IMG/VR virus record: IMGVR_UViG_3300027586_000002
Span: 42,941 to 106,940 of that record
From: a virus
Length of the DNA stretch: 64,000 nucleotides
Direction: 5' to 3' (one strand)
The position numbers and the translations under genes are program-made. The number at the start of each line of letters is the position of its first letter. Positions within the stretch are counted from its first letter, which is position 1. Of the stretch, positions 5,116-63,295 are shown piece by piece. The notes under the pieces were generated by a model. The model searched no databases, had not been told where the DNA came from, and saw only the letters and a list, made by a program, of their open reading frames with translations.

Positions 5116-5116
5116 T

Positions 5117-7566: not shown

Positions 7567-7652
7567 AGAGTGGCACCTGGGAAAACCTGGGTGCCACTCT
7601 GACTTATATAAATCAATTTTGATTAAAGAGCTAACTTTACTTTAGCTATTAG
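7567..7652 (+). terminator. cassette right end: hairpin + TTTAGCTATTAG
   Basis: AGAGTGGCACC...GGTGCCACTCT stem, then end motif at 7641-7652. Confidence 0.6.
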
Positions 7653-7683
7653 CTATTTATATTTTAAACCAGTAGTAATTTTT

Positions 7684-8580: not shown

Positions 8581-8584
8581 CTAT

Positions 8585-8929
8585 ATGAATACAAAAGCAA
8601 TAACACAGGTAGCGCTTGGGTTATTAGCGCTTGGGTTTTCAGCAATAACCGCCAAAGTTATAGCTGATAGATATTACGATACTTCTAATATTCAAGTAGT
8701 CTATATAGCCGCCTTAGTGCTGGCTTCATTGGAAAATTTGGCAATGTTTGTTGTGTCTTTCTTTGTCTATGATGAAGAAGACATAAAAATACATAAAGTA
8801 GAGTTGGATAATATTGCGTTAAGAAGGGATAATATTGAGCTGCAAAGACAGTTAAACGCAGTCAATATATACACAGATCAACTGGAAAAAAATCAGAAGT
8901 CCAGGTCACCCCTCCAACACACTCGTTAA
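8585..8929 (+). CDS. membrane protein (2 TM + coiled coil)
   Basis: Two hydrophobic segments and a heptad-like tail. Confidence 0.6.
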   Translation: MNTKAITQVALGLLALGFSAITAKVIADRYYDTSNIQVVYIAALVLASLENLAMFVVSFFVYDEEDIKIHKVELDNIALRRDNIELQRQLNAVNIYTDQLEKNQKSRSPLQHTR

Positions 8930-18509: not shown

Positions 18510-18845
18510 ATGCAATCAATACATGACCTATCAGAAACTCAGTTAGAAGCAATTAATGCCTCATTTGATATTATAATCAATGTGGGTGTTAATAGGCTAC
18601 ATGATCTCAGTCCAAAAATGTCTGAAACAAATCGAGAACAAATGGAAGCTGTTAATGTTGATGTGACCAAAGTTATTACCAAGGTCGAGAAAACACTTTC
18701 GGATGGTGGCAATCTAGGTAAAACTTCAATAGAAGATATTCTAAAGATCATTACCCTGGCTATTACTATTCTTGGAATAGCGCTGGGCGAAAATGATGAT
18801 GACGTTGTAAAACTACGTAAGTTAAACAAAGAAATTAACGGATAA
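18510..18845 (+). CDS. hypothetical protein
   Basis: Start moved out of the tRNA to the next in-frame ATG. Confidence 0.55.
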   Translation: MQSIHDLSETQLEAINASFDIIINVGVNRLHDLSPKMSETNREQMEAVNVDVTKVITKVEKTLSDGGNLGKTSIEDILKIITLAITILGIALGENDDDVVKLRKLNKEING

Positions 18846-42464: not shown

Positions 42465-42965
42465 ATGTCAAATACGTCAAGTCTCCGTAAAGCATCCTCA
42501 CTACCATCAGCTGCAGGTCGTAGCAAAGCATCAGTAAGATATGATACATCTGATGATGTGGTAAAGGTTTCAAATGGCACTAACTGGCTTCCTGTTACTT
42601 ATCATGATATCGCCTTTAACATGCTGGACAATGGTTCTCTAGCTACACAAACATTCTTCATTGCTTCCCGAACTCTTGAAGTTGTCTCTGTAAGAGAAGT
42701 ACATTCAGTTGTTGGATCTGATTCTGGTGCTGTATCTGTTACAGTTACAAAGGATACAGGAACTAACGCTCCTGGTGCCGGTACTGCTGTGTTGTCTGCG
42801 GTGTTGAGCCTTAAGGCCACTGCTAATACAACTCAGTCTGGTGCATTGTCTGCTACTGCTGCTACATTGAAGCTCGCTGCTGGTAATCGTCTAGCTATTA
42901 AGTTTGCTGGAGTTCTTACTGCTGCTGCTGGTGTTACAGTGACAGTTACAGTTAAGGAAATCTAA
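42465..42965 (+). CDS. probable virion decoration or fibre-like beta protein
   Basis: Ala/Thr/Val-rich beta-sandwich composition; own TTGCGT-N17-TAAATT promoter and terminator. Confidence 0.5.
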   Translation: MSNTSSLRKASSLPSAAGRSKASVRYDTSDDVVKVSNGTNWLPVTYHDIAFNMLDNGSLATQTFFIASRTLEVVSVREVHSVVGSDSGAVSVTVTKDTGTNAPGAGTAVLSAVLSLKATANTTQSGALSATAATLKLAAGNRLAIKFAGVLTAAAGVTVTVTVKEI

Positions 42966-43024: not shown

Positions 43025-43107
43025 CCCTCCCTCCCTGCTCATCGATACTTATTACACCAAGCACAAGAAGAGGCAGCCTGTGTGGCGCTCTTTTTTTTAG
43101 CTATCAG
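43025..43107 (+). repeat. empty cassette: C-rich tract joined to the conserved hairpin/end motif
   Basis: CCCTCCCTCCC...AAGAGGCA-GCC-TGTGT-GGC-GCTCTTTTTTTTAGCTATCAG. Confidence 0.7.
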
Positions 43108-43586
43108 GGTTTCCACTTATTTATAACGTCAGGATCTTTGTAAGCCCTCTTTATAAGTCTGTTCTCTATGAGAAGACTAGTCTGAGGATCATGTGTATCG
43201 TCCAAGGCATGACTAAGCTCATGAGCATAGATACAACCAAATCTAAAATAAGTCCATGGCTTGTCAGTTATAATAAAGGAATCATCTATAAGTATATAAG
43301 TACCTTTGTTCTTACTATAGACTGTCATACCAGAGAACTCTTTAGAGTGCATCCAGAACAAAGGAATATCTTCGTATCCTGTATACTTAATGTCAGGAGC
43401 TAATATATTTATTAAAGCCAGGCTGCGATAAGCCTTGGCAGTTTCCTCCGGAGTAAACGCTGCAGTAACCTTAATATACCTGTCGCCTAATCCTTGCACA
43501 TCTAAGTGTTCCTTATATAGATAAGTAGTGCAGTTAGTTACAACCAAACTAACAAGCAATATTATAAATAGGTGGACACGCTTCAT
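43104..43586 (-). CDS. exported zincin-like metallopeptidase
   Basis: Signal or lipoprotein peptide; AHELSH HExxH motif. Confidence 0.6.
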   Translation of the reverse strand: MKRVHLFIILLVSLVVTNCTTYLYKEHLDVQGLGDRYIKVTAAFTPEETAKAYRSLALINILAPDIKYTGYEDIPLFWMHSKEFSGMTVYSKNKGTYILIDDSFIITDKPWTYFRFGCIYAHELSHALDDTHDPQTSLLIENRLIKRAYKDPDVINKWKP

Positions 43587-43592: not shown

Positions 43593-44543
43593 TTACATAA
43601 AAGATGCGGACGGTTTGTTTAAATCTTTAAAATAATTTGTTCTTTGAACATTAATATATGGCCCACGGTTTATCCAATTAGTTCCATCTTGGGTGTAATG
43701 ATGGACTGGCTTAGCATAAGGTCGATCAATGTTGCCCATTATTGTGTCTAATCGGCTTGGTAAATGCCTTTTATTTACCTCTAAAAATGTTTGTCTGATA
43801 TCTTTGGCATTCTGCCCTTTTCCTTCAGCAAATAAATTAACACTTCCAGGAGGAGTTATATTAATATTTGTAGCGTTTGGAAAGTACTTGTGAACTAACT
43901 CTGGTGTACATCCTCCACCCAAATTACATGCTCCACTATAAAAGTTATGTATATTATTAGTAGCAGGTCCTATTTTTTTTGCTATATCTTCAAGATTAAA
44001 AAGTGTATCTGGATTTTTAATACTTGAAAGTAAACTACTATTAATTGATTTAGATATTTCTGGGTCCGGTTGATAATTAAAGTCTCCTACACCGCCACCA
44101 CCATGAGCATTTACGATCAAACTGTTATTCCCAAGCCCATTATCTATTCTTATATTACTAGAGTAACTTGGTTGATATTTATTCCAACTATTATAACTTG
44201 CATCAGGTATACCATTAAATAACCATTTATTTTTACTTGGGTTGCCCATTGGTTTTAGGAAATTATCTATTTCATTTATACCTTTGTTTTCGCCGCCGAA
44301 CCAATTTTTAGCTGTATCTTTTATGTGAGATAATCCATTTTGTACATTTGATATAAAAGATGGTCCTGTTTGGATGGGTTTGTCTCTTAATAACCTAGTA
44401 TCGTTATGCTCAATTTTAAGCCCAGTATTCATCCTCTGCATCATTGCACCAGGAGGTATGAGAGCTGGCTTTGCTGAAGGTATAGAGTTTATAACTTCAT
44501 CAGCTCTCTTCTTAAAGCCTCTTATAACAGCTTCTTGGTTCAT
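43593..44543 (-). CDS. leader-tagged protein with His-Gly/Cys (clan CD-like) domain
   Basis: MNQEAVIRGFKKRA; LIVNAHGG...FYSGACN. Confidence 0.7.
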   Translation of the reverse strand: MNQEAVIRGFKKRADEVINSIPSAKPALIPPGAMMQRMNTGLKIEHNDTRLLRDKPIQTGPSFISNVQNGLSHIKDTAKNWFGGENKGINEIDNFLKPMGNPSKNKWLFNGIPDASYNSWNKYQPSYSSNIRIDNGLGNNSLIVNAHGGGGVGDFNYQPDPEISKSINSSLLSSIKNPDTLFNLEDIAKKIGPATNNIHNFYSGACNLGGGCTPELVHKYFPNATNINITPPGSVNLFAEGKGQNAKDIRQTFLEVNKRHLPSRLDTIMGNIDRPYAKPVHHYTQDGTNWINRGPYINVQRTNYFKDLNKPSASFM

Positions 44544-44567
44544 ATTAAAACTGTTTGTATACTGTTA

Positions 44568-45269
44568 TTAACAATTCCATTTACTTAAAGCTAACGATTT
44601 TCTAGTAGGCCTTCCCTTTTCATCTTTCATTGGACCAGGCATTCCGCTCATTCTTGCACAGAAAGACTTTCTTCTTTTTGCTGATTTTGAATCAGGGTCT
44701 AATTTTGATGGCTCCGTAGTAACAGCCATTTGAAGTTTAGACCCAGGGTTTTCTGCGCGATACGATGCTACGCCTTTAGCGTTTAACCCACCTGCTGGAT
44801 TTTTGCCTTCTGAACGTTGCCAAGCCGCAGATGCTTGCTTATCTGATTCTTTTTCATTCTTTTTACCTACAGGACGACAAGAGCCAGGAGTCAACGCCTT
44901 AGTATTAGGTACGCGTTGGTATCCGCTCCAACACTTAGCTTGCTTCTCTGATATCGCGGTTACTTTGTTCCAGTTCTTAGCATCGGGGTAGTCTTTGTCT
45001 CCAGGCTTTGCTGTAGCTTCCCCTCGTTGCTTTTTAGCTCTAATGTTTGCCCACAAGCCGGGCTTTTCATCTGTTCCGCGCCCTAGTTTATTAAGCTCTT
45101 CAGCTCGCTTATAAAACCCTCTTAGCATTGCTTCTTTAGACACAGCAGGTAATCCATCATAGTCATAGCCTTTAATGTATTTTTCATCATAGAAGTCATA
45201 ACCATATGCTTCTTTATTAAGCTCTTCGGCTCGCTTATAAAACCCTCTTAGTATTGCTTCTTTGTTCAT
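44568..45269 (-). CDS. leader-tagged modular protein (two leaders, GLWANI, CWxGY and DUF6321-like modules)
   Basis: Modules separated by KEA/KQA; AWQRSEGKNP.GGLN.KG...RRKSFCARM...W.C. Confidence 0.75.
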   Translation of the reverse strand: MNKEAILRGFYKRAEELNKEAYGYDFYDEKYIKGYDYDGLPAVSKEAMLRGFYKRAEELNKLGRGTDEKPGLWANIRAKKQRGEATAKPGDKDYPDAKNWNKVTAISEKQAKCWSGYQRVPNTKALTPGSCRPVGKKNEKESDKQASAAWQRSEGKNPAGGLNAKGVASYRAENPGSKLQMAVTTEPSKLDPDSKSAKRRKSFCARMSGMPGPMKDEKGRPTRKSLALSKWNC

Positions 45270-45270
45270 A

Positions 45271-45609
45271 TTAAAACTGTTTGTTAAATCCCAATCTTGC
45301 TGGTAGTTTATCTGCAGAAATACTAGGGTTTACCGGAAGAGGCACTGGAGTTTGTTGACTATATGCGGGGTGAGGAGCCTGCCCTAACCCAGCTAACAAT
45401 TTAGCTCGGTCCAGCACCATCGCAAGTGGATTTATCCCTGGCATTTTGATTGGAAGATCAGGGGCAACGTATGGTTTGTCTTTCCCTACTTGGAATAACG
45501 GATTTATTCCTGGCATAACTAGACCACCAGCTTCACCTGCCCACTTTAGCCTTTCAGCTGCTCGCTTATAAAACCCTCTTAGTATTGCTTCTTTGTTCAT
45601 ATTATTCAT
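45271..45609 (-). CDS. leader-tagged Pro-rich protein
   Basis: MNKEAILRGFYKRAA; ends in RLGFNKQF. Confidence 0.65.
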   Translation of the reverse strand: MNNMNKEAILRGFYKRAAERLKWAGEAGGLVMPGINPLFQVGKDKPYVAPDLPIKMPGINPLAMVLDRAKLLAGLGQAPHPAYSQQTPVPLPVNPSISADKLPARLGFNKQF

Positions 45610-45610
45610 A

Positions 45611-46771
45611 TTAAAACTGTTTGTTAAATCCCAATCTTACATTGTTCTTACCAAAACTAGCTCTTGGAGAGGCTTTTCCTACAAGCGGAATACCTACATC
45701 TGTCTTCTTCTTAAAGTTCTGAAAGAAGCTTGCCGTGCCCTTAGACTTAGAAGTAGGAGCAACGGCAACGGCAGGCTTTATTGAAGCCATCGTTGCTGGG
45801 CCTACGTTGGCTTCTACGGGGTTATTACAGGCTCCCCCGCCACAGACGTCAATATCAGGTTCTACGTATGGAGCAGCGATAGATGACATAGCCAAACTAG
45901 GAGCTGGCTGTTGCCCTGATATAGTAGCAACATTACGCATTGTCTCCCTACGTATCGCTGCTTGTATGCTATCTGCTGCAAAGTTAGAACTTGGCTGTGG
46001 ATTGTTAAGCTCGGATTTGAATCTATCCATGAATGAACCCTGCATCAATTGATTGGCTTGTTCTTCTGATTTCTTAAACAACTTATGCTTTATAGCAAAA
46101 TCCTGCATGTCTTTGACTGTCTTGAAACTATCTGGCGTTCGTCCGCGCGCAGCATACCATCGTTTGTTATTCTGATTGCCTATTCCTTCAAGAGCAATGC
46201 TCATTTCTATATCGTCTAGTTCATCTGTTCCTATATGTTTTCTAAAATTGCTAGTTAATTTAACATGTTGTGGTTGAACACCTAATTGTTGGTGAATTAA
46301 CCTGGCCAGAGCTGGATGTACTCCTTTTTGTATGCCTTTATGATTAAATGGATCTTCATAAGACGATGGAGGATAATTGTATTCTGGTTCAACTTTAGCT
46401 TGTGGAAACATTGACCATGCGTTCTTATTCATACTTTTAGGATAGTGAGTATACAAAGTTCTATTCTTTGTGTCGGCATATATTTTAGCAAGCTCTTGCA
46501 ACAGCTTTTTATTTTTTGCGTCTTTTAAAGTAAAATAGCGAGGGTTATTACCTTCTTGTTTATGTACATCAGTATTATAATAGTTTTCTGTTTGAAAATG
46601 TACTGGCTTCTTGCTTACTTTGAAATGTTGTTGCAATGCCTTTGTAAAACTAGATGAATCGACACTGCCCGCGCCAGCGTAACCTCCCTTGACTCCTGTT
46701 TGTAATCCTAAATATGGATCGCTATGATAATCTCCTTTATCATCTGACCATGAGTATGCATTCTTATTCAT
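45611..46771 (-). CDS. modular protein containing an acyl-carrier-protein-like domain
   Basis: MNKNA twice; LIHQQLGV...NF..HIGTDELD.IEM..ALE...FKTVKD. Confidence 0.7.
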   Translation of the reverse strand: MNKNAYSWSDDKGDYHSDPYLGLQTGVKGGYAGAGSVDSSSFTKALQQHFKVSKKPVHFQTENYYNTDVHKQEGNNPRYFTLKDAKNKKLLQELAKIYADTKNRTLYTHYPKSMNKNAWSMFPQAKVEPEYNYPPSSYEDPFNHKGIQKGVHPALARLIHQQLGVQPQHVKLTSNFRKHIGTDELDDIEMSIALEGIGNQNNKRWYAARGRTPDSFKTVKDMQDFAIKHKLFKKSEEQANQLMQGSFMDRFKSELNNPQPSSNFAADSIQAAIRRETMRNVATISGQQPAPSLAMSSIAAPYVEPDIDVCGGGACNNPVEANVGPATMASIKPAVAVAPTSKSKGTASFFQNFKKKTDVGIPLVGKASPRASFGKNNVRLGFNKQF

Positions 46772-46772
46772 A

Positions 46773-49619
46773 TTATTTAAGTGCTGGTTGACTTGCGTTA
46801 GGAGCCATTTGGAATGCTTCGTGGAACAAGTTGCTTACTCCAGCGTTTGCCGGATTGGTAAACACATGTGGAAGTAAACGTTCTCCTGTGCTTTCAGGTT
46901 TAGTTAAAGCTTTATTAAAGTTTAATATTGTCTCTCCAGGTCCCTTAGGATTCTTAAGCCCGTCTGTTAATGTTTTCTTTAACCCTGTAAAGGCATCATT
47001 ATTACCCCAACTTGTATAATTAGTCTTAAGCTGGTTCTCATTATTAAACACTCCCTGCCTAGTAGTAGGAGTTGTTAAACTATATTGTTTAGTAGGAGCA
47101 GCTTGAAGAAATTGTAATATCTTTGTTTGTATATGTTCAGGAGCATTCATTGCATTAGTTAGCCCTGTCATAAAATCAGGATGCATCATTCCAGGTATAG
47201 GCTCTAGTGGAGGTATAGCCTTTAGTGGAGGTATAGGCTTTAGTGGAGGTAGTACATCCGCTGCACGTTTATTAAACCCTCTTAGTATTGCCTCCTTGTT
47301 CATGTTATTTTCTAGATCCTTCTTTCTTTTCTTATTCCAGTAATAAAGCCCAGCTAATCCTCCAGCAGCAGCCAAGCCAATTCCTACTGGTATACTTACT
47401 GACGTAGGAATAACAGGCCTTATTTCAGCGGTATGGCTTGGAGCATTTCTCCCAGTTAAATGAGCTTCTCTGACAAACTCTTCTTTAGTTGGAATTAACC
47501 ACGGTTGTTTCTGTGTGATAGCAAAACTCCTAGCAGCATTAGCTGTATCTGTTGTGGATATGTGTCCTGGAGTACCATAAGTCCTTCTTGGCACATTTGA
47601 TAATGGTGATTTACCTATGATCTTATCAATACACGCACCATCTCCGTTACAACCTATTACTTCTAAAAGACTAGGTTTCTTGCCTGTATAGTTTTTTAAT
47701 ATATCACTTAGCAGAGTGCTTTCATCGCCAGCAGCCCCGCCGCCTAGACTATAGTTGTCAGTCTTTCCACCTCCGTGACCCATTAGTGACAATATACCAT
47801 TTGGAATGTTTTTTCGAAATGTGAAGTCGCCGGCTATATCCTGATTCTGATAATCTGAATACATCTTGAACGCGCTCTCGCGCTCGCGGGGGGCGTGAAA
47901 GTCCAAAAATGATGTGTCATTATTCGGACGAAGCCCGAGGTTGTAGGAATGGTCATTTATAACTGTTTTTGCTTCTTTGTTCATACTTCCTTTATTGATC
48001 CAAGCTTTAATGGCCGATATAACTTTAGGATCTTTAGCTTTTGATAAATAATCCTGTACGTTCATTTCGCCTACATTCTCTTCACCCAAGAACTCATACT
48101 CAGGAATTGCATCTACATCCCGCTTACGCATCTTATATGTTCTTAATGGTTTAACTGGCTTATCGCTTACATACTCAGACGAAGTGATTGTCTGACCTAA
48201 TTCTTTGTCTTCTCTGGTAATCTTTTTAAAATGACTGGCAGGAAAAACGTGCATATATCCATTAGGAGTATGCCCTAAAAGAAGTTTTCTACCAGTGCTT
48301 GGATCTATTAATCGGTGGTACACTGAGTTCTTTATCTTCTCCTTCATTGCAAGGTATTCTGGTGTAGGAGTATTTGTAAATGCAGAAGAGGGTTTGTCTG
48401 CAGCATAAGCCACTTGATCACCATACTCATATCCATAATTATACTTTTGATTAAACTTGGGGTCCAATACATCTAACTTTTGCGCAGATCCATGGTATAA
48501 GTATTTGCGATTCTTTATATCTTCTATACTCTTAATTATCATCTCTGGATAACCTGCGCGAAGAGCTGCTTTCTTAAACATATTGTTATTTAATATCTCG
48601 TTGTAGCTCTGAGGCTTATATCTATCTTTCTTCAAGTCTCTTATTGTATCATTGGCTTCTGCATAATCAGATCGTAAATCAAATATAGATCTAGGATGCT
48701 GACCTGATATCTGTGACCTTATATAACCCTGTATTGAAGAACGCAAAGGTCCACGGTCTAGTAACATCTTATTAGCTGTTGGTATCTTAAGAACATGATC
48801 AGCTTCAGTATGATGACCACCAAGAACTATGTTGTCATTACCTTGTATATACTTATCCATTAGCTCTTGTCTCTTACCAGCAAGCAAAGCCAGCATCTCA
48901 TCATTGTAATCTTTCTTTCTAATATGCTTGTAACCCAAGTCTTTCTCGCCCTGCTCATCGAACTCATCTAGATCCTTAGTATTAAGATGAGGATACTTGG
49001 CTTTAAGAGCTTCAAGTAAATGCGTCTTACCTGCGCCCGATGCTCCTCCTATATGAGCTAGTACGTTGCCTGATTGCTTCATCAAATTTGCGTAACCAGT
49101 ATTACCATGAGGAGATATGACTTCAATCCTAGGGTTTATGGTCATTCCCATATACTTCGACTTGCCCAATATCTTCTTATGCTTATCCCAACGAGCAATA
49201 GCGTCATCATATCCGGCCTGTCCCAATTGTGGTCCGTCTGGATGTAATAACTTATCCGGTAACCCGACTACATCAAACAATGTACGCTTAAGATCTTCGT
49301 CATTTATATTAAAGTTATGTTGATAATAACCTTTGCCTGGATTGAACTTCTCTCTTCCAGGTATAGTAGAGTAAAGAAATGATTGATCATCAGGAACATT
49401 AACACCTATGGCTTTAAGCTTGTCTCTATATACTTGCTCTGTCTTTTTTCTACCTTCTACATATTTAGAAGCTAACTCAGGCTTATTCTCCCATCTACCG
49501 TTAGTACGATCCTTAAGCAACTCAGCATATAACAATGTCCTCAAAGCATCGTGTTTGATACGAGCATAGTGAACTGATTGTATATCTGACTGCTTGTGCA
49601 TGTTATTGCCCTGCAACAT
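46773..49619 (-). CDS. 948-aa polyprotein: unknown domain, P-loop kinase, ART-like domain, His-Gly/Cys domain, TM, leader-tagged tail
   Basis: GGASGAGKT; YLYHGS...GYMHVF...EYVS; LMGHGG...VIGCN; internal MNKEAILRGFNKRAA. Confidence 0.75.
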   Translation of the reverse strand: MLQGNNMHKQSDIQSVHYARIKHDALRTLLYAELLKDRTNGRWENKPELASKYVEGRKKTEQVYRDKLKAIGVNVPDDQSFLYSTIPGREKFNPGKGYYQHNFNINDEDLKRTLFDVVGLPDKLLHPDGPQLGQAGYDDAIARWDKHKKILGKSKYMGMTINPRIEVISPHGNTGYANLMKQSGNVLAHIGGASGAGKTHLLEALKAKYPHLNTKDLDEFDEQGEKDLGYKHIRKKDYNDEMLALLAGKRQELMDKYIQGNDNIVLGGHHTEADHVLKIPTANKMLLDRGPLRSSIQGYIRSQISGQHPRSIFDLRSDYAEANDTIRDLKKDRYKPQSYNEILNNNMFKKAALRAGYPEMIIKSIEDIKNRKYLYHGSAQKLDVLDPKFNQKYNYGYEYGDQVAYAADKPSSAFTNTPTPEYLAMKEKIKNSVYHRLIDPSTGRKLLLGHTPNGYMHVFPASHFKKITREDKELGQTITSSEYVSDKPVKPLRTYKMRKRDVDAIPEYEFLGEENVGEMNVQDYLSKAKDPKVISAIKAWINKGSMNKEAKTVINDHSYNLGLRPNNDTSFLDFHAPRERESAFKMYSDYQNQDIAGDFTFRKNIPNGILSLMGHGGGKTDNYSLGGGAAGDESTLLSDILKNYTGKKPSLLEVIGCNGDGACIDKIIGKSPLSNVPRRTYGTPGHISTTDTANAARSFAITQKQPWLIPTKEEFVREAHLTGRNAPSHTAEIRPVIPTSVSIPVGIGLAAAGGLAGLYYWNKKRKKDLENNMNKEAILRGFNKRAADVLPPLKPIPPLKAIPPLEPIPGMMHPDFMTGLTNAMNAPEHIQTKILQFLQAAPTKQYSLTTPTTRQGVFNNENQLKTNYTSWGNNDAFTGLKKTLTDGLKNPKGPGETILNFNKALTKPESTGERLLPHVFTNPANAGVSNLFHEAFQMAPNASQPALK

Positions 49620-50040
49620 TAGCCTTCTTGTTTAAGTAATCAATGATAACTTGATTATCTGCTAGTTGTTCCTTTAACCCGACAACCTCAGCTTCATAGT
49701 CTTTAACCTGGGTTTTAAGAATATCGATTTCATCCTGCATATCATTCAATCTTGCATTGCAGTCCTGTCTTTTAATTGTTTCTTGGTCAAGCCTTACACT
49801 TAGCTCATCCAAACGTTTGCCTAGATCCGTAGCTGATTTTTTCCAGAATTCTGCCATATCTATTTCTCCTTCTATTCTAGTTTTATCTGCTAATGAAATG
49901 TCTTTCTTTGATTCAGCGTCGTCTTTTCTCTTTGACAACAGTTTTATAATTATAGGTGCAAGTCCTGCACCTCCTAATAATATCAGAAATATGTCTTTAA
50001 TGAAAATAAATGTTTGATCGTCAGCTCCTGGTAGTGTCAT
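49603..50040 (-). CDS. membrane-anchored coiled-coil protein (holin-like)
   Basis: One N-terminal TM, basic stop-transfer residues, heptad tail. Confidence 0.5.
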   Translation of the reverse strand: MTLPGADDQTFIFIKDIFLILLGGAGLAPIIIKLLSKRKDDAESKKDISLADKTRIEGEIDMAEFWKKSATDLGKRLDELSVRLDQETIKRQDCNARLNDMQDEIDILKTQVKDYEAEVVGLKEQLADNQVIIDYLNKKANVAGQ

Positions 50041-50044
50041 ATGT

Positions 50045-50992
50045 TTATTTATTGTATCCTTTAAATAGATTAGTTGTCCATTGTCCGTTGGTTCCCTTTA
50101 AATACTGAATTGGGTTATTATAAACGCCCGGCAGAAATCCCTTATCACCACCGGAGTGACGCCTTCCAAGCCCAATAGATGGTATATCACCACCGTAACC
50201 AAGCCTACCTTGAGGAGTGGCAACCATATTGGTCATGTTAGGAAAGTTTTCAGTTATTTCTTTTGTAGGAGCACAGCCTCTTTCTTGATTGCAAGTACTG
50301 AAGAATAAATTATGTACATTTGTAGCTTTATCTCCAATTGCCTTTCTTAAATCAGGCATAGAGAAGCCATCAACCTTGTTTAATGTTGAAAAATTATTTT
50401 TTCCAATTGCAGTTGAATCAAGACTTAATTCATATTCACCTGGCCTGCCACCACCATGACTATCAACTAATAGAGAATTAAATGGATTTTTAGCTAAAAA
50501 ACCTTTATTCAAATCTGGTCTAGCATTTGTGCGTTTTATAAAATTTGTTAAGGCTGGAATCTCGAGCCCTCTGCCTCCACCGTAACCAATCCCTCTTAAA
50601 TCTCCCTCTAAAATCATAGAAGAATTGATATTAGAATTAGCTCCATGATATATATAAGGAGCTAATTTATTACTATTGTTATTAACATTATTTTTAATTT
50701 TATCAATTGTATGATTAAAATAAAGATCTTCTTGAGCTTTAGATGAATCAAACATTTTATCCATCATGTTTACACGATATGTTGAGTAATGCGGAACTCC
50801 TTCTGTAGGCTTTAGTATATTGTCATATCTTGTATCTGAATTCATGTGCTTTTTCAAAACACCCATATTAATATCATTAGCAGTATTATTGCTTATGCTG
50901 CTTATTGGTTTTATTGTTGGATGATTAGGATTTAATGGTATAAAGTCGGCTGCTCTCTTCATAAACCCTCTTAATATAGCCTCAACGTTCAT
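50045..50992 (-). CDS. leader-tagged His-Gly/Cys domain paralog
   Basis: MNVEAILRGFMKRAA; LLVDSHGG...LFFSTCN. Confidence 0.75.
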   Translation of the reverse strand: MNVEAILRGFMKRAADFIPLNPNHPTIKPISSISNNTANDINMGVLKKHMNSDTRYDNILKPTEGVPHYSTYRVNMMDKMFDSSKAQEDLYFNHTIDKIKNNVNNNSNKLAPYIYHGANSNINSSMILEGDLRGIGYGGGRGLEIPALTNFIKRTNARPDLNKGFLAKNPFNSLLVDSHGGGRPGEYELSLDSTAIGKNNFSTLNKVDGFSMPDLRKAIGDKATNVHNLFFSTCNQERGCAPTKEITENFPNMTNMVATPQGRLGYGGDIPSIGLGRRHSGGDKGFLPGVYNNPIQYLKGTNGQWTTNLFKGYNK

Positions 50993-50995
50993 AGG

Positions 50996-52261
50996 TTATC
51001 GATTAAAAATTTTATCTTTTAAGTTATCCAGCATTAGTTGTTGAAGCTCTTCTTTTTCTTTTATAAAAGAAGCTATAGAACCTGTAGGCCTGGACATGTT
51101 AGCCATTACTTTGTCCTTGTAAGATGTATATGGATTTGTGTTAACAGCTTTGATCTTGTCTAAGTAATTATTTCCTTTGCCTAACTCTTGTCCTATCTCT
51201 CCAGCTTCCCCAGCCATTTGGGCTATTAAATTTGCAGCAACCAAAGGAGGCACACCAGTAAATCCCGCCGCCACCGCCGCCAGTGCCTCAGGAAGACCAA
51301 CTCGTCTAGCGTCTGTATAAACACCATCATTTAACCAAGATTTTTGAGCAGTAGGATCAGAACCAGGGATAAGGTTGTATTCGTGTGGAGCGGCGATTGG
51401 TAGCTTAAGCTTGTTTAAAGTATCAGTTAATATTGGAGATGAGTCACCTATAGTCCAAGAATAATTACCAGGCGGGGCCATAATAACCTTATTAACATTT
51501 ATTTTAAAGTCTTTAGGTGTAGAGTACGTTGTTGGAGTATAAATATTTTTGAATGGATAATCTCTATTTGTAATTGGGTCTTGATTATGTATTATTTCAT
51601 TTTTTCCTTTATCAGTCAATAAACCATCTCCATATTGATGTCGTCCATTTACAGTAGTATTTAATTGTTTAATAAACTTGGCATACATGTCTGGAGTACA
51701 ACCATCTGTGTTAGGATTGCAGCCTAATGCTTTAATTATACTTGGATTTTTATCTTGTAACTCTGAAGTTAAATGTTGGTTAGTTAACAATTTAGAATTG
51801 TATAGACCTTCGTCATCATTCCCACCCTCGTTTTTAATACCAGTAAACTGGCTAATATTTTTTCCTATATTTTCTGGCCTACGCTTTGGTTCGTGTATAA
51901 GTGATTCTGTTTTACCTCCCCATGGAGCACCAGAGTGAACAACGTCGGGTATGCTAAGATCATAGTATGCTCCTTTATTTTCTTTAGAATAAGGATTACT
52001 TAGATTATAGTTATTTCTATCTCCGATACCATGTGCGTCCATATTTAATATTGACCCATTTGGGTTAATCGGAAATTTTGCGTTTCCTGAGAAGTAAGGT
52101 AAATTTATACGGCTGTTATTTAACAAGTTTAGACTACCAGGCTGGTATATTCCTTTACCTAAATTAGTAATGTTAGGCTGTGGTTTAGACACAGGTATAG
52201 GAGGGCGCTCAACATCAGCCGCTCGCTTATAGAAACCTCTTATAATAGCCTCAACGTTCAT
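50996..52261 (-). CDS. leader-tagged His-Gly/Cys domain protein with hydrophobic C-terminal segment
   Basis: MNVEAIIRGFYKRAA; LNMDAHG...IKALGCN. Confidence 0.7.
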   Translation of the reverse strand: MNVEAIIRGFYKRAADVERPPIPVSKPQPNITNLGKGIYQPGSLNLLNNSRINLPYFSGNAKFPINPNGSILNMDAHGIGDRNNYNLSNPYSKENKGAYYDLSIPDVVHSGAPWGGKTESLIHEPKRRPENIGKNISQFTGIKNEGGNDDEGLYNSKLLTNQHLTSELQDKNPSIIKALGCNPNTDGCTPDMYAKFIKQLNTTVNGRHQYGDGLLTDKGKNEIIHNQDPITNRDYPFKNIYTPTTYSTPKDFKINVNKVIMAPPGNYSWTIGDSSPILTDTLNKLKLPIAAPHEYNLIPGSDPTAQKSWLNDGVYTDARRVGLPEALAAVAAGFTGVPPLVAANLIAQMAGEAGEIGQELGKGNNYLDKIKAVNTNPYTSYKDKVMANMSRPTGSIASFIKEKEELQQLMLDNLKDKIFNR

Positions 52262-52264
52262 TGG

Positions 52265-53086
52265 TTATTTATTGTATCCTTTAAACGTGTTAGTTGACCA
52301 ATTCCCATTTGTACCTTTTAGATATTGAACTGGCCTTGTACCAATACCCATTGGATTAATCATACTCATACCAAATGGTCGTGACTTACCAGCTCCAATT
52401 GAGAGTAAATCATTAACAACTCCAAATCTTCCTTGAGGAGAGGCAACCATATTAGTCATGTTAGGAAAAGCTTTGGTAAATTCTTCAGTAGGTGCTCCGC
52501 CGCCACGCTGGTTGCAAGTACTAAGATATAAATTATGAACGTTTGTTGCCTTATCTCCTATAGTTTTTTTTAAATCGTCTACATTAAAATGTACATTAGG
52601 TGTAGGAAAATCATTTTTTCCTATGGATGACTTATCAATTCCAACAGAATAGTAGTTGGGTTCTCCGCCCCCATGCATATTAACTAAAAATGAATTAGAT
52701 GGATTTTTATTTAAAAAGTCTAGCAGTAATGGTCGTTTATTATACCTAAGATCTCCTTCTAATATCATCGAGGAGTTCATATTAGAGTTTGCTCCATGAT
52801 AAACGAATGGTGATAGTTCTGTAGGTTTGTTATTTGATATTTCATTAACTATTTTAGAAACTTCTGGTAGCTTGAAAAACTTATATGTATCCATATCTAA
52901 GTGCTTATTAATAATGGGTTCAAGCTTTTTGTCCATGATTTGATTATAGCTAGAAACAAGGTCAAAATGCTGGTCTGAAGCAGGAGGGACATCTGGAGTT
53001 TTTGTATTTAAGAAAGGATGTCTAGGATTTAACGGAAGATCCGCCGCCCTCTTCATAAACCCTCTTATAATAGCCTCAACGTTCAT
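52265..53086 (-). CDS. leader-tagged His-Gly/Cys domain paralog
   Basis: MNVEAIIRGFMKRAA; FLVNMHGG...LYLSTCN. Confidence 0.75.
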   Translation of the reverse strand: MNVEAIIRGFMKRAADLPLNPRHPFLNTKTPDVPPASDQHFDLVSSYNQIMDKKLEPIINKHLDMDTYKFFKLPEVSKIVNEISNNKPTELSPFVYHGANSNMNSSMILEGDLRYNKRPLLLDFLNKNPSNSFLVNMHGGGEPNYYSVGIDKSSIGKNDFPTPNVHFNVDDLKKTIGDKATNVHNLYLSTCNQRGGGAPTEEFTKAFPNMTNMVASPQGRFGVVNDLLSIGAGKSRPFGMSMINPMGIGTRPVQYLKGTNGNWSTNTFKGYNK

Positions 53087-53089
53087 AGG

Positions 53090-53797
53090 TTAATTGTATC
53101 GTTTAAACGTGTTAGTTGACCATTGCCCGTTAGTTCCCTTTAAGTATTGAACTGGGTCTGTGTGTTTAACTTCTTGATCACCCCAATTGGCTGGGTTTAA
53201 TAAAGTGTTAGAAAATTGTCTTCTACCTGTCATACCAATATTAAATATGTCATTTACATAGCCCGGCTTCCATGGTGGGGAGGCGACTATATTTGTTACA
53301 TTAGGAAAATTATTTAACATTTGACTAGTAGGATAGCACCCAGCATCTCGGTTACAAGTTGCGAAGAACAAGTTATGCACATTAGTGGCTTTATCTTTCA
53401 AAGCATCCTTTATGTCTGATATAAAAAAATCTTTATTAGGTGTTATTGGATTTAACCGTTGATTAGGTATTACAGATTTATCTAAATTAATAGCATACTC
53501 GTTATTAAACCCTCCTCCATGACTATCTATAAATAATGAATTTAATGGATTTTTTTGTAAGAAATAGTTTTTAAGCTTATTACTACTCTCTCTCAACTCT
53601 CCCTCAAGCAACATAGATGAATTCATGTTGGACTTAGCTCCATGATAAATATATGGAGCCAATTTATCTGCATTAGAATTAGTATTACTTACTATATGGT
53701 TTTCCAATGTGAATGGCTTGTTCATTGGATGCTGTGGGTTTAATGCCGCATCAGCCGCTCGCTTATAGAAACCTCTTATAATAGCCTCAACGTTCAT
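53090..53797 (-). CDS. leader-tagged His-Gly/Cys domain paralog
   Basis: MNVEAIIRGFYKRAA; LFIDSHGG...LFFATCN. Confidence 0.75.
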   Translation of the reverse strand: MNVEAIIRGFYKRAADAALNPQHPMNKPFTLENHIVSNTNSNADKLAPYIYHGAKSNMNSSMLLEGELRESSNKLKNYFLQKNPLNSLFIDSHGGGFNNEYAINLDKSVIPNQRLNPITPNKDFFISDIKDALKDKATNVHNLFFATCNRDAGCYPTSQMLNNFPNVTNIVASPPWKPGYVNDIFNIGMTGRRQFSNTLLNPANWGDQEVKHTDPVQYLKGTNGQWSTNTFKRYN

Positions 53798-53800
53798 AGG

Positions 53801-55267
53801 TTATTTAATTCCTCCGATTGGGTTGATTGGCTTCATGCCTATAGGCTTAATAGGCTTGATATCCGGCGCTGTCATAGGTGTAGATAAAGCATTCGACTTA
53901 CTTGCATTATTTAACGCCGGCGCAGATATGTCTAAAGGTTTGTTATTATTTTGAAAATTTAATCTTCTTTGCAATCTATTTATATTACCACTGTCTTGCT
54001 GTATATCCCACAAGTTCTTGCCAATGTTAAGCATGTCTCCGCCAGCATTCCAGGCTTTATGAGAAAGATCTCCTATTCCTCCAGCAATAGCTCCAGGGAT
54101 AGCTCCAACACCACCACTCAAGGCTCCACCAGTAGCCGCACCCGCTGTCATTGCTTTAGTTGAATCTAACCAGTGACCACTTACGTCATTAAAATAAGAA
54201 GATATTGGATGTTGCTCTTGCTGTGCTGGTGTTGCCATTGGACCAGTAGGAGCAACAGCGTCTAACCCCATGGAGATAGGAACGCCTACAGCCATGCCCT
54301 TGCCCATAGATTTAGCAAATTGATTTATTGGTTTAGTTAAATCTAATTGGCGTTGTGCATTGTTTGGATAAACAATAGCTTCATCAATATGATTTGCTGC
54401 AGAATGAGGGCCACGATAGTAGTTTAATTCTTTTAAGAATTCAGGAAATTTATAGACCAGACTATCTGGAATTGGTGTAGTTACTGCTCTACTTAATAAA
54501 TGACCACCTGCAAAATATGCAGCTGAGCCTGTCCTTAAAAGACTTTCACCAGGACCGTGGTATCTTGGTCCTTTATACCCACCATATAAATTAGCAAAAG
54601 TTTCACTTGGGCCTAATTGTAATTCAGGTGTGACAATTGGACCATAGCGCATAGAAGGAATAGTGGGATTTTTAGCATGCCATAATTCATGTGCCATTAT
54701 ACTTCTACGTAGATATTTATTTATATCAGGTATAAACTTAGTAACGCCGTTATCCTTTGGTATGCCTAGCATTTGTGCTGCATCATTAGCAGTTGATGGT
54801 AACAAATTAGAGTTAATCTTAATTTCTGGCCAGCCGTGTCTAAGATAAAAGTCTTTATCTCCTAAAAAATTAGGATTGATTGGTGCATTAACAATATAAG
54901 ATGGTTGGCCAAGCTGTGTATACCCAAGCAAGGAGCTTGGCATTTTTTCTCCTTTTGACATTGCTAGGACTTTATAAAAGTCGCTTAGAGATGGATCATC
55001 AACACGTCTAGGACCTGGATATGAGATTGGAACACCAGCTAAACTAACCGCTCTCTTCATAAACCCTTTATACAAAGCTACTTTAAGATTATCACTTATA
55101 TGTTCAGGAAGACCTTTGAGCTTAGTCTTGGCATAGTGTAACACGTCTTCTGGCGACATTGATTTGGCCAATGACTTGATTCTCTTATTAGGGCGCGATA
55201 GCTTGCCCTGTTGGTGCAGGTGAACAAGTTTAAACAGACGTGCTTGCGCTTTTGATACTGCCGGCAT
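53801..55267 (-). CDS. modular protein: MPAxSKAQ domain, internal leader, zincin motif, glycine zipper
   Basis: ALYKGFMKRA; AHELWH...E..AN; GAATGGALSGGVGAIPGAIAGG. Confidence 0.7.
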   Translation of the reverse strand: MPAVSKAQARLFKLVHLHQQGKLSRPNKRIKSLAKSMSPEDVLHYAKTKLKGLPEHISDNLKVALYKGFMKRAVSLAGVPISYPGPRRVDDPSLSDFYKVLAMSKGEKMPSSLLGYTQLGQPSYIVNAPINPNFLGDKDFYLRHGWPEIKINSNLLPSTANDAAQMLGIPKDNGVTKFIPDINKYLRRSIMAHELWHAKNPTIPSMRYGPIVTPELQLGPSETFANLYGGYKGPRYHGPGESLLRTGSAAYFAGGHLLSRAVTTPIPDSLVYKFPEFLKELNYYRGPHSAANHIDEAIVYPNNAQRQLDLTKPINQFAKSMGKGMAVGVPISMGLDAVAPTGPMATPAQQEQHPISSYFNDVSGHWLDSTKAMTAGAATGGALSGGVGAIPGAIAGGIGDLSHKAWNAGGDMLNIGKNLWDIQQDSGNINRLQRRLNFQNNNKPLDISAPALNNASKSNALSTPMTAPDIKPIKPIGMKPINPIGGIK

Positions 55268-55385
55268 ATACACTTCAAATATAACTTATTGACTTTAAGG
55301 TTTAAAGCTTAAACTCATTTAAAAGATGATTGTATTAATTTAGCTATAAGTTATAATTACAAAAGGTAGTTAACTAAACATACAA

Positions 55386-56303
55386 ATGAAAAAGATACTT
55401 GGAATCCTCGCAATCCTTGCAACGGCTATAACTATTAATGCTGTAGAAGCCGTTAAAACAGTTGCTCAGCACCTACAAGAGATTTCAGTTACAATTGCTG
55501 TCTCAACACCAATGGGTACTGCACAGGGTTCAGGAGTATTGTTTACTAGAAAAGACGCAAATAGCAACAATGTAAACTTTGTATGGACAGCAGGACACGT
55601 TATTGCGCATGCCAGAACAACTAGAGACGTAGTTGATTCATCTGGTCGTAGCAAGACATTGGTAGAGTTTCCAGATGTGCAGATTATCAATAACATCGTG
55701 GAAGAAGGACGAACCATTGGACGTGTAATACTTGATGCAGAGGTTATTAAGTATTCTGACGCGGACAACGGGGAAGATCTGGCGGTTCTTCGTATTCGTA
55801 GAAAGAACTTCGTATCTACTACTGTAGTATTTAACATTGATAAGAAGATGCCTGAGATTGGTACTGAGTTATATCACGTCGGATCATTGCTAGGGCTCGG
55901 CGGTGCTAACTCAATGACCTCCGGCATTTATTCACAGGTTGGTCGCGTACATGATAAGAAGCTATACGACCAAACAACAGTAACCGCCTTTCCCGGTAGT
56001 TCCGGAGGTGGTGTATTCCATAGAGATGGCAAGTATATTGGTATGCTTGTTCGTGGTGCAGGTGAAACATTCAACTTGATTGTTCCAATTAGGCGAATGG
56101 AAGAGTTTGCTACTAAGCATAATATTCGTTGGGCTTTGGATCATAAGGTAGTAATGCCAGGTAATGAGGTTATTGCTGAGATACCAGTAGAGGGAGTCCC
56201 AAACAAGCCAGCAGACAAAGACGCTGTTGCTGCCAAGAAAAACTATATGCTTCCATTTATGATCAATTGGATTCCTGCCCATATAACGCAAGAAATCAAA
56301 TAA
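55386..56303 (+). CDS. exported trypsin-like serine protease
   Basis: Signal peptide; TAGHV, DLAVL, PGSSGG triad motifs. Confidence 0.88.
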   Translation: MKKILGILAILATAITINAVEAVKTVAQHLQEISVTIAVSTPMGTAQGSGVLFTRKDANSNNVNFVWTAGHVIAHARTTRDVVDSSGRSKTLVEFPDVQIINNIVEEGRTIGRVILDAEVIKYSDADNGEDLAVLRIRRKNFVSTTVVFNIDKKMPEIGTELYHVGSLLGLGGANSMTSGIYSQVGRVHDKKLYDQTTVTAFPGSSGGGVFHRDGKYIGMLVRGAGETFNLIVPIRRMEEFATKHNIRWALDHKVVMPGNEVIAEIPVEGVPNKPADKDAVAAKKNYMLPFMINWIPAHITQEIK

Positions 56304-58034: not shown

Positions 58035-58080
58035 GACCCCGGGTAGGCAATCTAATAGCTAAAAAAGGGTATAGTATATT
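58035..58080 (+). promoter_or_regulatory. cassette left end
   Basis: GACCCCGGGTAG...CTAATAGCTAAAAAAGGGTATAGTA. Confidence 0.7.
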
Positions 58081-63235: not shown

Positions 63236-63295
63236 CCCCTCCCCGCCGGCCCGGTCAAGTTAATAGCCAGAATAAGGGTATAGTACTTTGATGAG
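63236..63295 (+). promoter_or_regulatory. cassette left end, overlapping a divergent sigma70-like promoter
   Basis: C-rich tract + TAATAGCCAGAATAAGGGTATAGTA; minus strand TTGACC-N17-TAGGTT (63258-63230). Confidence 0.65.

What the first reader, a model, noticed from the sequence alone, without database searches (positions are those of the whole stretch)
43593..55273. Array of payload proteins sharing an MNxEAIxRGFxKRA leader: candidate capsid-targeting and processing system
Seen: eleven head-to-tail minus-strand genes. Seven start with M-N-[KVQ]-E-A-[IV]-[LI]-R-G-F-x-K-R-A, and further copies are internal (second copy in 44568-45269, at about 47303, and ALYKGFMKRA in 53801-55267). Sequences diverge right after KRA. 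Other modules are delimited by K-x-[AS] (KQA, KEA, KNA, KKA, KQS). Cargo includes His-Gly/Cys protease-like, ART-like, kinase, zincin, ACP-like and glycine-zipper domains. Known: T4 internal proteins share a 10-aa capsid-targeting sequence removed by the prohead protease and are injected (IPI* blocks GmrSD). Inference: an address tag plus K-x-A cleavage site that loads a variable arsenal of enzymes into the head for delivery at infection; potentially a programmable protein-loading tag.
Basis: partly seen in the sequence, partly recalled or inferred. Interest (0 to 1): 0.9.

Follow-up and report, generated by a model that had tools for sequence, protein, structure and literature searches.

The report
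Shared leader tag on phage proteins
An uncultured large phage (about 200 kb) carries a block of eleven genes whose otherwise unrelated proteins share a strongly conserved 14-16-residue leader peptide, which behaves like a portable address or processing tag, possibly for loading proteins (including six caspase-like proteases) into the virus particle, though that destination is not shown.

Summary
The core observation holds. Eleven head-to-tail minus-strand genes (43593-55273) carry ten copies of [RK]GFxKRA: seven N-terminal, three internal. There are none elsewhere in the 107-kb contig. The leader MN[KVQ]EA[IV][IL]RGFxKRA is under peptide-level purifying selection (pN/pS 0.21; invariant residues use 2-4 codons each). 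Bodies are mostly unrelated: leader identity averages 71%, and only 6 of 36 body pairs are detectably similar.

Relatives in metagenomes carry the same leader on swapped bodies (NUDIX polyprotein, DUF6321, HExxH proteins, glycine zippers), with fusion and fission at the leader or at a short MNKEA start motif.

Generic K-x-[A/S] sites are at chance level (z 0.34). The real junction mark is MNK[E/N]A.

Cargo: six caspase-like (clan CD) His/Cys domains are supported by fold. ART-like and kinase-like modules are weakly supported.

Capsid targeting is plausible by analogy with the T4 capsid targeting sequence. Support is indirect: DUF6321/DUF3008 modules occur in a cyanophage protein annotated 'virion protein', the proteins are basic, and g948 has a polyvalent architecture. 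It is untested here because head genes are absent from this half-genome and the tool for fetching relatives' contigs was closed.

Verdict: a real shared tag and a new variant of a known kind. The destination is unproven.

The parts
53801..55273 (-). g490: DUF3008-like N-terminal module, degenerate internal leader (..ALYKGFMKRA.., 55043-55090), HExxH body, glycine-zipper C-terminus
53090..53797 (-). g235: leader (53750-53797) + Pro-rich linker + caspase-like His/Cys domain
52265..53086 (-). g273: leader (53039-53086) + caspase-like domain
50996..52261 (-). g421: leader (52214-52261) + divergent caspase-like domain with long insert + glycine-zipper-like C-terminal region
   Evidence: (orthologs P0015, P0023)
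50045..50992 (-). g315: leader (50945-50992) + caspase-like domain
49603..50040 (-). g145: TM + coiled-coil protein without leader, acidic. Its homolog sits elsewhere and on the other strand in the relative L016, so it is probably not part of the system
46773..49619 (-). g948: fused multi-module protein: N-terminal module, P-loop kinase-like, degenerate leader relic (FKKAALRAGY), ART-like module, MNKEA start relic + caspase-like domain, TM helix, full internal leader (47256-47303), tail module
45611..46771 (-). g386: no full leader; two modules each starting MNKNA; weak ACP-like segment; C-terminus RLGFNKQF shared with g112
45271..45609 (-). g112: leader (45553-45600, after MNN) + short Pro-rich body
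44568..45269 (-). g233: leader (45222-45269), small YD-rich module, second leader (45096-45143), GLWANIRAKK module, DUF6321 domain
   Evidence: (PF19846 E 4.4e-23)
43593..44543 (-). g316: leader (44496-44543) + caspase-like domain
43104..43586 (-). g160: last gene of the same-strand block; signal-anchor/lipoprotein-like HExxH protein without leader; stays next to the array in relative L016

Best explanation
The array encodes a set of mostly basic, modular proteins that share a portable 14-16-residue N-terminal helical peptide (MN[KVQ]EA[IV][IL]RGFxKRA[ADE][DE]) followed by a flexible, often Pro-rich linker and an unrelated body. Shown: the peptide is a selected protein element, it is confined to this gene set, and it is exchanged between bodies by recombination, fusion and fission at the leader or at its first five residues (MNKEA). 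Inferred: one common partner recognises the peptide. The most likely role is to sort these proteins into the assembling virion (head interior or ejection apparatus), as the capsid targeting sequence does for T4 internal proteins, so that enzymes are delivered with the DNA: six caspase-like proteases, HExxH proteins, a kinase/ART-like polyprotein and small DNA-binding-looking modules. Also inferred: the invariant G-F and K-R-A make a docking and/or cleavage site that removes the tag and cuts fused modules apart.
For: Ten motif copies, all in the array. Peptide-level selection: pS 0.60 against pN 0.13, variable sites 4/4/10 by codon position, Arg13 encoded by CGA/CGT/AGA/AGG. Leader identity 71% with unrelated bodies. 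The same leader sits on swapped bodies on other contigs: P0010, P0013, P0015, P0018, P0019, P0020, P0021-23, P0024, P0025 and locus L016. Internal copies stay conserved after fusion. AlphaFold puts the leader in a helix, residues 3-15. Distant homologs of the caspase-like domain carry lineage-specific MNKxAF..GF-type N-termini where bacterial homologs carry signal peptides, which marks this position as an address slot. DUF6321 is the C-terminus of S-SCSM1 gp029, annotated 'virion protein'; the paper reports MS of purified virions. A DUF6321 gene lies between the scaffold and capsid genes in pelagiphage Eistla. DUF3008 and DUF6321 are the two ends of one S-RIM2 protein in the virion gene cluster. 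Ten of 11 array proteins have pI above 8.5, against 36% elsewhere. g948 and its NUDIX-bearing orthologs look like polyvalent proteins, which were predicted to be packaged (PMC5512222). T4 precedent: internal proteins share only a capsid targeting sequence (PMC3012670). The leader is not a generic amphipathic membrane helix.
Against: No direct evidence of virion location. No head or prohead-protease gene on the contig to compare cleavage motifs. Neighbours are not head genes. K-x-A sites are at chance level. The link between the S-SCSM1 'virion protein' label and MS detection of that ORF could not be verified in the supplement, and those cyanophage proteins lack the leader. Several bodies have TM or glycine-zipper segments, bacterial homologs are Sec-exported, and exported proteases flank the array, which also fits an envelope-directed role. 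DUF3008 can sit in front of the leader, so a free N-terminus is not required.
Confidence: 0.42

Rival explanations
1. Processing signal rather than address: the leader is a pro-peptide and inter-module cleavage site cut after Lys-Arg by the array's own caspase-like (clan CD) proteases or by another protease. This would activate the enzymes and release modules from fused proteins, wherever they act. It is compatible with, but does not need, virion packaging.
For: Invariant K12-R13-A14. KR[AS] is enriched only through the leader. Six paralogs keep the His-Gly and Cys-Asn motifs. The fold list is dominated by clan CD enzymes, many of which cut after Arg/Lys (metacaspases, clostripain, gingipains) (their specificity is from general knowledge). 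Full leaders persist between modules in g948, g233, P0010, P0013 and P0021-22.
Against: P1 specificity cannot be read from these data. A cleavage site alone does not explain conservation of residues 2-10 (E-A-I-L-R-G-F). Leaders occur in L016, where no caspase-like paralog lies in the 12.5 kb seen.
Confidence: 0.2
2. Envelope or export address: the leader directs the proteins to the membrane, the periplasm or a non-classical export route in the infected cell, where the proteases and glycine-zipper proteins act on the envelope (lysis, superinfection exclusion, receptor removal).
For: Bacterial homologs of the caspase-like domain have signal peptides at the same position. The array is flanked by a secreted trypsin-like protease and a signal-anchored HExxH protein, both conserved in L016. 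TM or glycine-zipper segments occur in g948, g490, P0019 and P0024.
Against: The leader has no hydrophobic core, and its helical hydrophobic moment is not above shuffled controls. Invariant specific residues point to protein recognition rather than lipid binding. DUF6321/DUF3008 relatives sit in virion gene clusters.
Confidence: 0.15
3. Docking helix for a non-virion complex: the leader tethers different enzymes to one common scaffold or chaperone in the infected cell, in a dockerin-like way.
For: Short helix plus flexible linker plus variable body. Strict conservation of a few residues.
Against: No candidate receptor gene is conserved next to the array except g160 and the 166-aa protein. Nothing points to such a complex.
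Confidence: 0.1
4. Recombination and translation-start cassette: the leader region persists mainly because it is the homology patch at which cassettes are exchanged (gene conversion) and a good start region in a genome without Shine-Dalgarno sites. The peptide itself would have no sorting role.
For: g235 and g421 leaders are identical at DNA level over 16 codons although the bodies are unrelated. The spacers TAA-CCT-ATG, and the conserved upstream RLGFNKQF-TAATG junction, are repeated. Body swaps occur at the leader. The contig shows no SD use.
Against: Across classes and phages, synonymous change is near 0.6 per site while six residues are invariant. The leader is kept at internal positions where it is not a start (P0010 has Ile in place of Met).
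Confidence: 0.08

Closest known systems
T4 capsid targeting sequence (CTS) and internal proteins (IPI-III, Alt)
   Same: A short N-terminal peptide is the only thing shared by a diverse, fast-evolving set of proteins encoded together. In T4 it sends them into the scaffolding core and they are injected (PMC3012670). Array proteins here are basic, as internal proteins are.
   Different: No sequence relation. The leader is longer (14-16 aa) and ends in K-R-A-[A/D/E]-[D/E], not in the T4 [L/I]-x-E site, which is not enriched here. Copies also occur internally and behind DUF3008. No T4-type prohead protease or gp23 was found on the contig. Packaging is untested.
Propeptide-bearing head and ejection proteins of giant phages (phiKZ, SPN3US)
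   Same: Large phage; many head-internal proteins, including paralog families, carry N-terminal propeptides removed by the prohead protease (PMC10052503).
   Different: Those propeptides are 20-254 aa, share only an A/S/G-x-E cleavage motif, and are not one conserved tag. Here [SAG]-x-E is, if anything, depleted.
Polyvalent proteins of phages and conjugative elements (Iyer et al. 2017, PMC5512222)
   Same: g948 and its orthologs string unrelated enzyme modules (P-loop kinase-like, NUDIX, ART-like, protease) in one chain, as in proteins predicted to be packaged and injected.
   Different: No hit to the hallmark MPTase-PolyVal model, only HExxH motifs. Not adjacent to portal, MuF or terminase genes. 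Here modules also exist as separate genes joined by a common leader grammar, which that work does not describe as far as I read it.
Clan CD cysteine peptidases (caspases, metacaspases, clostripain C11, legumain, gingipains, CHAT, toxin CPDs)
   Same: Predicted fold and an invariant His-Gly ... Cys pair after hydrophobic strands.
   Different: No Pfam family matches. The family is small, 74 hits in 1.8 billion representatives. Z is only about 6. Activity and specificity are unknown.
Cargo-loading peptides of encapsulins and N-terminal packaging signals of contractile injection system payloads
   Same: A short peptide plus flexible linker is enough to load unrelated cargo into a phage-related shell or tube (from general knowledge, not tested here).
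   Different: Encapsulin tags are usually C-terminal and unrelated in sequence. No encapsulin or eCIS genes were seen.

Membership tests
T4-type CTS / internal-protein system | One short N-terminal peptide shared by otherwise unrelated proteins encoded in a cluster | tested here: met
T4-type CTS / internal-protein system | Tag ends in the prohead-protease site ([L/I]-x-E in T4) that is also used on capsid and scaffold proteins | tested here: not met
   The leader ends K-R-A-[ADE]-[DE]. [LI]-x-E is not enriched (z -0.03). Capsid and scaffold genes are not on the contig, so a shared non-T4 site could not be examined.
T4-type CTS / internal-protein system | Genome encodes a T4-type prohead protease (Peptidase_S77) and gp23-type capsid protein | tested here: inconclusive
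   No match on the contig, but the contig is about 52% complete and the control genomes did not ring for these two families.
T4-type CTS / internal-protein system | Tagged proteins are present inside virions and are injected | not testable with these tools
   Indirect only: a DUF6321-bearing protein annotated 'virion protein' in S-SCSM1.
Clan CD cysteine peptidase (caspase-haemoglobinase fold) | Fold | tested here: met
   AF2 pLDDT 83.5, pTM 0.81. VIA wide: most of the top 30, and nearly all of the top 20, are clan CD; Z 6.2-4.0, about 130-150 residues aligned, rmsd 4-5 A. Foldseek best hit is clostripain, E 7e-3. Z is moderate, so the fold is likely rather than certain.
Clan CD cysteine peptidase (caspase-haemoglobinase fold) | Catalytic His(-Gly) and Cys, each after a hydrophobic strand | tested here: met
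   H93-G94 and C148 are invariant in 30 diverse sequences. All six window copies keep them.
Clan CD cysteine peptidase (caspase-haemoglobinase fold) | Membership of a described family (C11, C13, C14, C25, C80, CHAT) by sequence | tested here: not met
   No Pfam hit at E <= 0.1 for window copies or ten homologs.
Polyvalent proteins (Iyer et al. 2017) | Several unrelated effector-type domains in one phage-encoded polypeptide | tested here: met
   g948: P-loop (weak), ART-like (tentative), caspase-like, TM and tail modules. Orthologs carry NUDIX, E 1e-8 to 1e-19.
Polyvalent proteins (Iyer et al. 2017) | Zincin-like MPTase domain and/or linkage to portal, MuF or terminase genes | tested here: inconclusive
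   HExxH motifs only. No Pfam MPTase-PolyVal hit; a minor atlas lead. The array is about 70 kb from the terminase gene and not next to head genes.
DUF6321 (PF19846) | Match above the curated cut-off | tested here: met
   g233 residues 155-231, E 4.4e-23, 82 bits against a 28.5 cut-off.
ADP-ribosyltransferase fold (g948 residues about 340-545) | Fold and H-Y-E/R-S-E type motifs | tested here: inconclusive
   Model pLDDT is only 58. Best Z is 4.0, but about two-thirds of the 30 listed chains are ART-fold. Y-H-x-S is invariant in 4 sequences.

The most novel reading that the evidence does not exclude
A previously undescribed phage protein-sorting code. A 14-16-residue tag, with a 5-residue MNKEA module-start grammar, lets an uncultured lineage of large phages (about 200 kb) shuffle, fuse and split cargo genes freely. 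The tag loads a diversifying arsenal into the virion for injection, led by a new family of caspase-like proteases and including kinase, NUDIX, ART-like and HExxH enzymes. In effect this would be proteolytic counter-defence delivered with the DNA, and the tag would be usable as a packaging handle outside the T4 family.
Probability: 0.3. Interest if true: 0.8.

Novelty: new variant of a known kind. Interest (0 to 1): 0.62.

Why it matters
If the tag is a packaging signal, it would be a second, sequence-unrelated example of the T4 'capsid targeting sequence' principle, in a phage lineage with no cultured member. It would come with an unusually clear view of how such a system evolves: cargo swapping, fusion and fission at the tag. 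It would also mark a new, small family of caspase-like proteases as candidate injected effectors, a kind of phage weapon not yet described. Whatever the destination, the tag is a compact, testable sorting or processing signal, and it flags at least nine unrelated protein families of unknown function as belonging to one pathway.

Tried and rejected
- Megablast and tblastn of the array and of caspase-like members against GenBank phages: no match.
- IMG/VR searches by protein, profile and two strict leader DNA patterns: no relatives.
- GTDB genome scan for the leader: two chance hits in 63% GC DNA.
- Six of the seven metagenome pattern hits were chance.
Head genes of relatives were therefore never seen.
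- Promoter-class analysis for expression timing: too few shared motifs. A CTATACCC..GCTATTA motif sits upstream of two other minus-strand genes (its first half also upstream of the terminase gene) but not upstream of the array.
- Bacteroidota-type TAnnTTTG boxes are not enriched upstream of genes.
- The idea that the leader is a strongly amphipathic helix: not supported by hydrophobic moment against shuffles.
- My guess that L016 P0012 is the counterpart of the g490 body: rejected, only the leader matches.
- Large unassigned ORFs as hidden portal or capsid genes: no PHROG, Pfam or PDB sequence hits.
- The broader pattern MNKxA..G[FY]xK in IMG/VR gave two weak leads (L024, L025) that I do not rely on.
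- The alignment of the ART-like segment to whole P0021 was misaligned and discarded.

Full report
SETTING. The window is the right-hand 64 kb of a 106,940-bp IMG/VR viral contig that CheckV rates about 52% complete, so the phage is roughly 200 kb. The contig carries 15 tRNA genes, a large terminase, DNA polymerase, helicases, SbcCD, ligase, UvsX, RNA ligase, ribonucleotide reductase and DHFR. PHROGs, Pfam, PDB sequence search and family scans of the whole contig recognise no capsid, portal, scaffold or prohead-protease gene. The nearest cultured phage by terminase is only 29% identical. Genes show no Shine-Dalgarno signal: 12% against an 11% background.

THE OBSERVATION. Eleven ORFs lie head to tail on the minus strand from 55273 down to 43593. 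A twelfth (g160, 43104-43586) ends the same-strand block. Seven proteins start with MN[KVQ]EA[IV][IL]RGFxKRA. g233, g948 and g490 hold internal copies. In a six-frame translation of the entire contig, [RK]GFxKRA occurs ten times, and every copy is in this array on this strand.

After position 16 the sequences diverge into linkers, often Pro-rich, and then into bodies. Leader identity averages 71% over 36 pairs. Only six pairs, the four closest caspase-like paralogs, have similar bodies.

The conservation is at the protein level. In codons 4-14 of 13 copies (ten here, three in a relative), variable sites fall 4/4/10 by codon position. Pooled pS is 0.60 against pN 0.13. The invariant Ala5, Gly9, Phe10, Lys12, Arg13 and Ala14 each use two to four codons; Arg13 uses CGA, CGT, AGA and AGG. 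Some concerted evolution does exist: the g235 and g421 leaders are identical in DNA, and the four MNVEA genes share a TAA-CCT-ATG junction that keeps five consecutive ORFs (g490 to g315) in one frame.

WHAT DID NOT HOLD. K-x-[A/S] as a module delimiter is at chance level: 48 observed against 45.9 +/- 6.0, and z -1.07 without the leaders. The real signal behind that impression is a five-residue start motif, MN.[EN]A. It occurs 11 times in the array against 0.08 expected (0 of 2000 shuffles reach it) and is absent from the other 146 proteins, 28,049 residues. Three copies mark modules without a full leader: g386 residues 1 and 114, and g948 residue 546. A relative's protein (P0010) begins exactly at the g948 internal MNKEAKT. 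A degenerate leader relic (FKKAALRAGY) follows the kinase-like module of g948 at the place where the relative L016 has FKKVAILRGFNKRA.

RELATIVES. The array has no match in GenBank phages or IMG/VR. A degenerate leader pattern found one true relative among metagenome contigs: L016, from a 135,612-bp contig. It is syntenic for g160, a 166-aa protein, a secreted trypsin-like protease and DHFR. Its leader set is different and smaller: a 449-aa HExxH protein, a 60-aa glycine-zipper protein, and a kinase-like protein ending in an internal leader.

A profile of 40-residue leader segments then recovered leader-bearing proteins from about ten further contigs, up to 195,661 bp. They show the same tag on swapped bodies.
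- P0023 and P0062 join the g490-type DUF3008 + leader to caspase-like bodies (g421-type in P0023) instead of the HExxH body.
- P0010 joins a caspase-like domain + TM helix through the leader to the g233-type DUF6321 body. In g948, P0021 and P0022 the same position leads into a different tail.
- P0013 puts an HExxH domain in front of leader + DUF6321.
- P0019 and P0024 are glycine-zipper proteins.
- P0018 and P0025 carry further unrelated bodies.
- P0021 and P0022 replace or add NUDIX (E 1e-8 to 1e-19).

P0012 and g490, both HExxH proteins, share nothing detectable except the leader. The free-standing tail genes P0016 and P0017 lie on contigs of about 1.1 kb and could be fragment artefacts. The other examples lie on contigs of 13-196 kb. 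At least nine unrelated body types thus sit behind one tag.

THE CARGO. A profile of the His-Gly/Cys paralogs found only 74 hits among 1.84 billion representatives, and no Pfam family. In 30 diverse members His93-Gly94, Cys148 and Pro165 (g235 numbering) are invariant. All six window copies keep both motifs. AlphaFold2 gives a confident model (pLDDT 83.5, pTM 0.81) with the leader as a helix over residues 3-15. An exhaustive structural comparison lists almost only clan CD peptidases at the top: caspases 8, 3 and 9, CHAT, MALT1, metacaspases, C11, legumain; Z 6.2-5, 130-150 residues. Foldseek's best PDB hit is clostripain (E 7e-3). In BFVD the best hit is an uncharacterised myovirus protein (E 4e-5), followed by giant-virus caspases. 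Caspase-like is therefore well supported as a fold. Activity is inferred.

About a quarter of the non-self homologs begin with either the strict leader or a lineage-specific relative of it: MNKTAFLEGVG, MNKLAFLAGFF, MNKIHQAFIDGFIKAAAG, MNKQALEAGY and so on, each followed by a Pro/Ala-rich linker. A similar share carry hydrophobic signal peptides and look like bacterial exported proteins. So the N-terminus of this domain family is an address slot.

The g948 segment 340-545 has standalone and fused homologs. A low-confidence model (pLDDT 58) has weak matches (Z 4.0 or less) that are mostly ADP-ribosyltransferase folds, so 'ART-like' is tentative. Kinase rests on a P-loop and weak AAA_18 hits. 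'ACP-like' rests on one weak PHROG hit.

EVIDENCE ON DESTINATION. The only array modules with relatives in cultured phages are DUF6321 and DUF3008, plus the small GLWANIRAKK and CWKGY..C modules. They occur in more than 500 marine cyanophage and pelagiphage records.
- In S-SCSM1 the DUF6321 domain ends a 517-aa protein annotated 'virion protein', between a tail-fibre gene and the large terminase. The paper reports 45 proteins by MS of CsCl-purified virions, 13 of unknown function (PMC9602691). I could not find the MS table entry for this ORF.
- In S-RIM2 one ORF runs from DUF3008 to DUF6321 inside the virion gene cluster.
- In the T7-like pelagiphage Eistla the DUF6321 gene lies between the scaffold and capsid genes.

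Ten of 11 array proteins are basic, against 36% of the rest (Fisher p 6e-4; paralogs are not independent). The conserved 166-aa neighbour resembles tail-fibre-type phage proteins in the ESM atlas, which is a lead only.

Against this, the array is flanked by non-virion genes. Exported proteases sit at both ends. Several bodies have TM or glycine-zipper segments. The leader's hydrophobic moment is not above shuffled controls, which argues against a simple membrane-binding helix and for specific recognition.

MECHANISM.
- Shown: a selected, portable peptide tag confined to one gene set, and module exchange at the tag.
- Inferred, most likely (about 0.4): the tag docks the proteins to one partner during virion assembly, so they are packaged and delivered at infection, as with the T4 capsid targeting sequence (PMC3012670). 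K-R-A would be a processing site.
- Rivals: a pure processing signal for the Arg/Lys-type clan CD paralogs; an envelope or export address; a non-virion docking helix; a recombination and start cassette. These are not all mutually exclusive.

COMPARISON AND NOVELTY. The logic matches the T4 internal proteins and, more loosely, the giant-phage propeptides (PMC10052503) and polyvalent proteins (PMC5512222). But the tag is unrelated in sequence. It does not end in the T4 or phiKZ cleavage motifs. It works internally as well as N-terminally. It comes with a module-start grammar and a new caspase-like family. I rate it a new variant of a known kind, with the destination unproven. Other first-stage notes on this same stretch reached similar readings of the array and of the caspase-like paralogs. 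No look-alike was noted on other DNA in the scan.

Noticed in passing
window 55386-56303 (+): Trypsin-like serine protease (Trypsin_2, E 2.8e-14) with a clear N-terminal signal peptide, divergent from the array. It is conserved next to the leader genes in relative L016 (4292-5263). A phage-encoded exported protease of unknown role.
   Followed up: partly
window 43104-43586 (-): 160-aa protein with a signal-anchor or lipoprotein-like N-terminus (..LVVTNC) and an HELSH zincin motif. It is the last gene of the array's strand block and about 90% identical by eye in L016 (649-1131).
   Followed up: partly
window 42465-42965 (+): 166-aa beta-rich protein conserved beside the array in both phages. 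ESM atlas neighbours are phage-only clusters, one with Mtd_N (47% of members), and structural neighbours include tail-fibre-type proteins. Possible virion surface protein.
   Followed up: partly
window 50992-55273 (-): Five consecutive ORFs (g490, g235, g273, g421, g315) are in one reading frame, separated only by TAA + CCT/CCA before the next ATG. This is explained by tandem duplication of a unit with a 3-nt spacer. Read-through was not examined.
   Followed up: no
window 45271-46771 (-): g386 and g112 end in the same C-terminal peptide, RLGFNKQF, whose stop overlaps the next start (TAATG). The same DNA (ACAAACAGTTTTAAT) also precedes g316, where it is non-coding. Several unrelated leader-family proteins in relatives end in ..YNK. 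Junction homology extends upstream of the leader.
   Followed up: partly
whole contig G000: No Shine-Dalgarno signal: 19 of 157 genes against an 11% background. TAnnTTTG is not enriched upstream. Atlas neighbours of the g490 body are most often labelled Bacteroidota. The host is probably one that does not rely on SD.
   Followed up: partly
window 58036-58074 and 63245-63283 (-); contig 18594-18601 (-): Motif (A)CTATACCCTT-N5-7-GCTATTA about 40 nt upstream of two minus-strand genes. The first half (TCTATACCCC) is also upstream of the large terminase gene. Possible promoter class; not present upstream of the array.
   Followed up: partly
L025 (IMGVR_UViG_3300042261_001653) 469-8743: In an unrelated 68-kb viral contig, several adjacent genes start with similar helical peptides (MNKIGSILEDIDQLVKQAF, MDFNVLKSFLEKAAAA, MALYLDELQAGIDGFTKQA, MNKDAFIDGFVKAA). 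They lie among small glycine-zipper proteins and split multisubunit RNA-polymerase genes. This may be an analogous tag system.
   Followed up: partly
proteins P0056, P0076, P0077, P0081, P0086 (homologs of the caspase-like domain): Five distant homologs share yet another conserved N-terminus (MP[EDQL][YF]L[IV]ED..G.K..V.GD), suggesting a third kind of N-terminal module on this domain family.
   Followed up: no
proteins P0102, P0104; S-SCSM1 gp029 (L019 1690-3243); S-RIM2 ORF (L021 3501-4679): Small Cys/Lys-rich modules (CWxGY..PNCV, GLWANIRAKKxRGE, YHKVKSRYSVWPSAYASGALVKCRK, DUF3008, DUF6321) recombine freely among marine phage proteins. Here they are fused to ART-like and caspase-like modules, forming a mosaic network with no assigned function.
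   Followed up: partly
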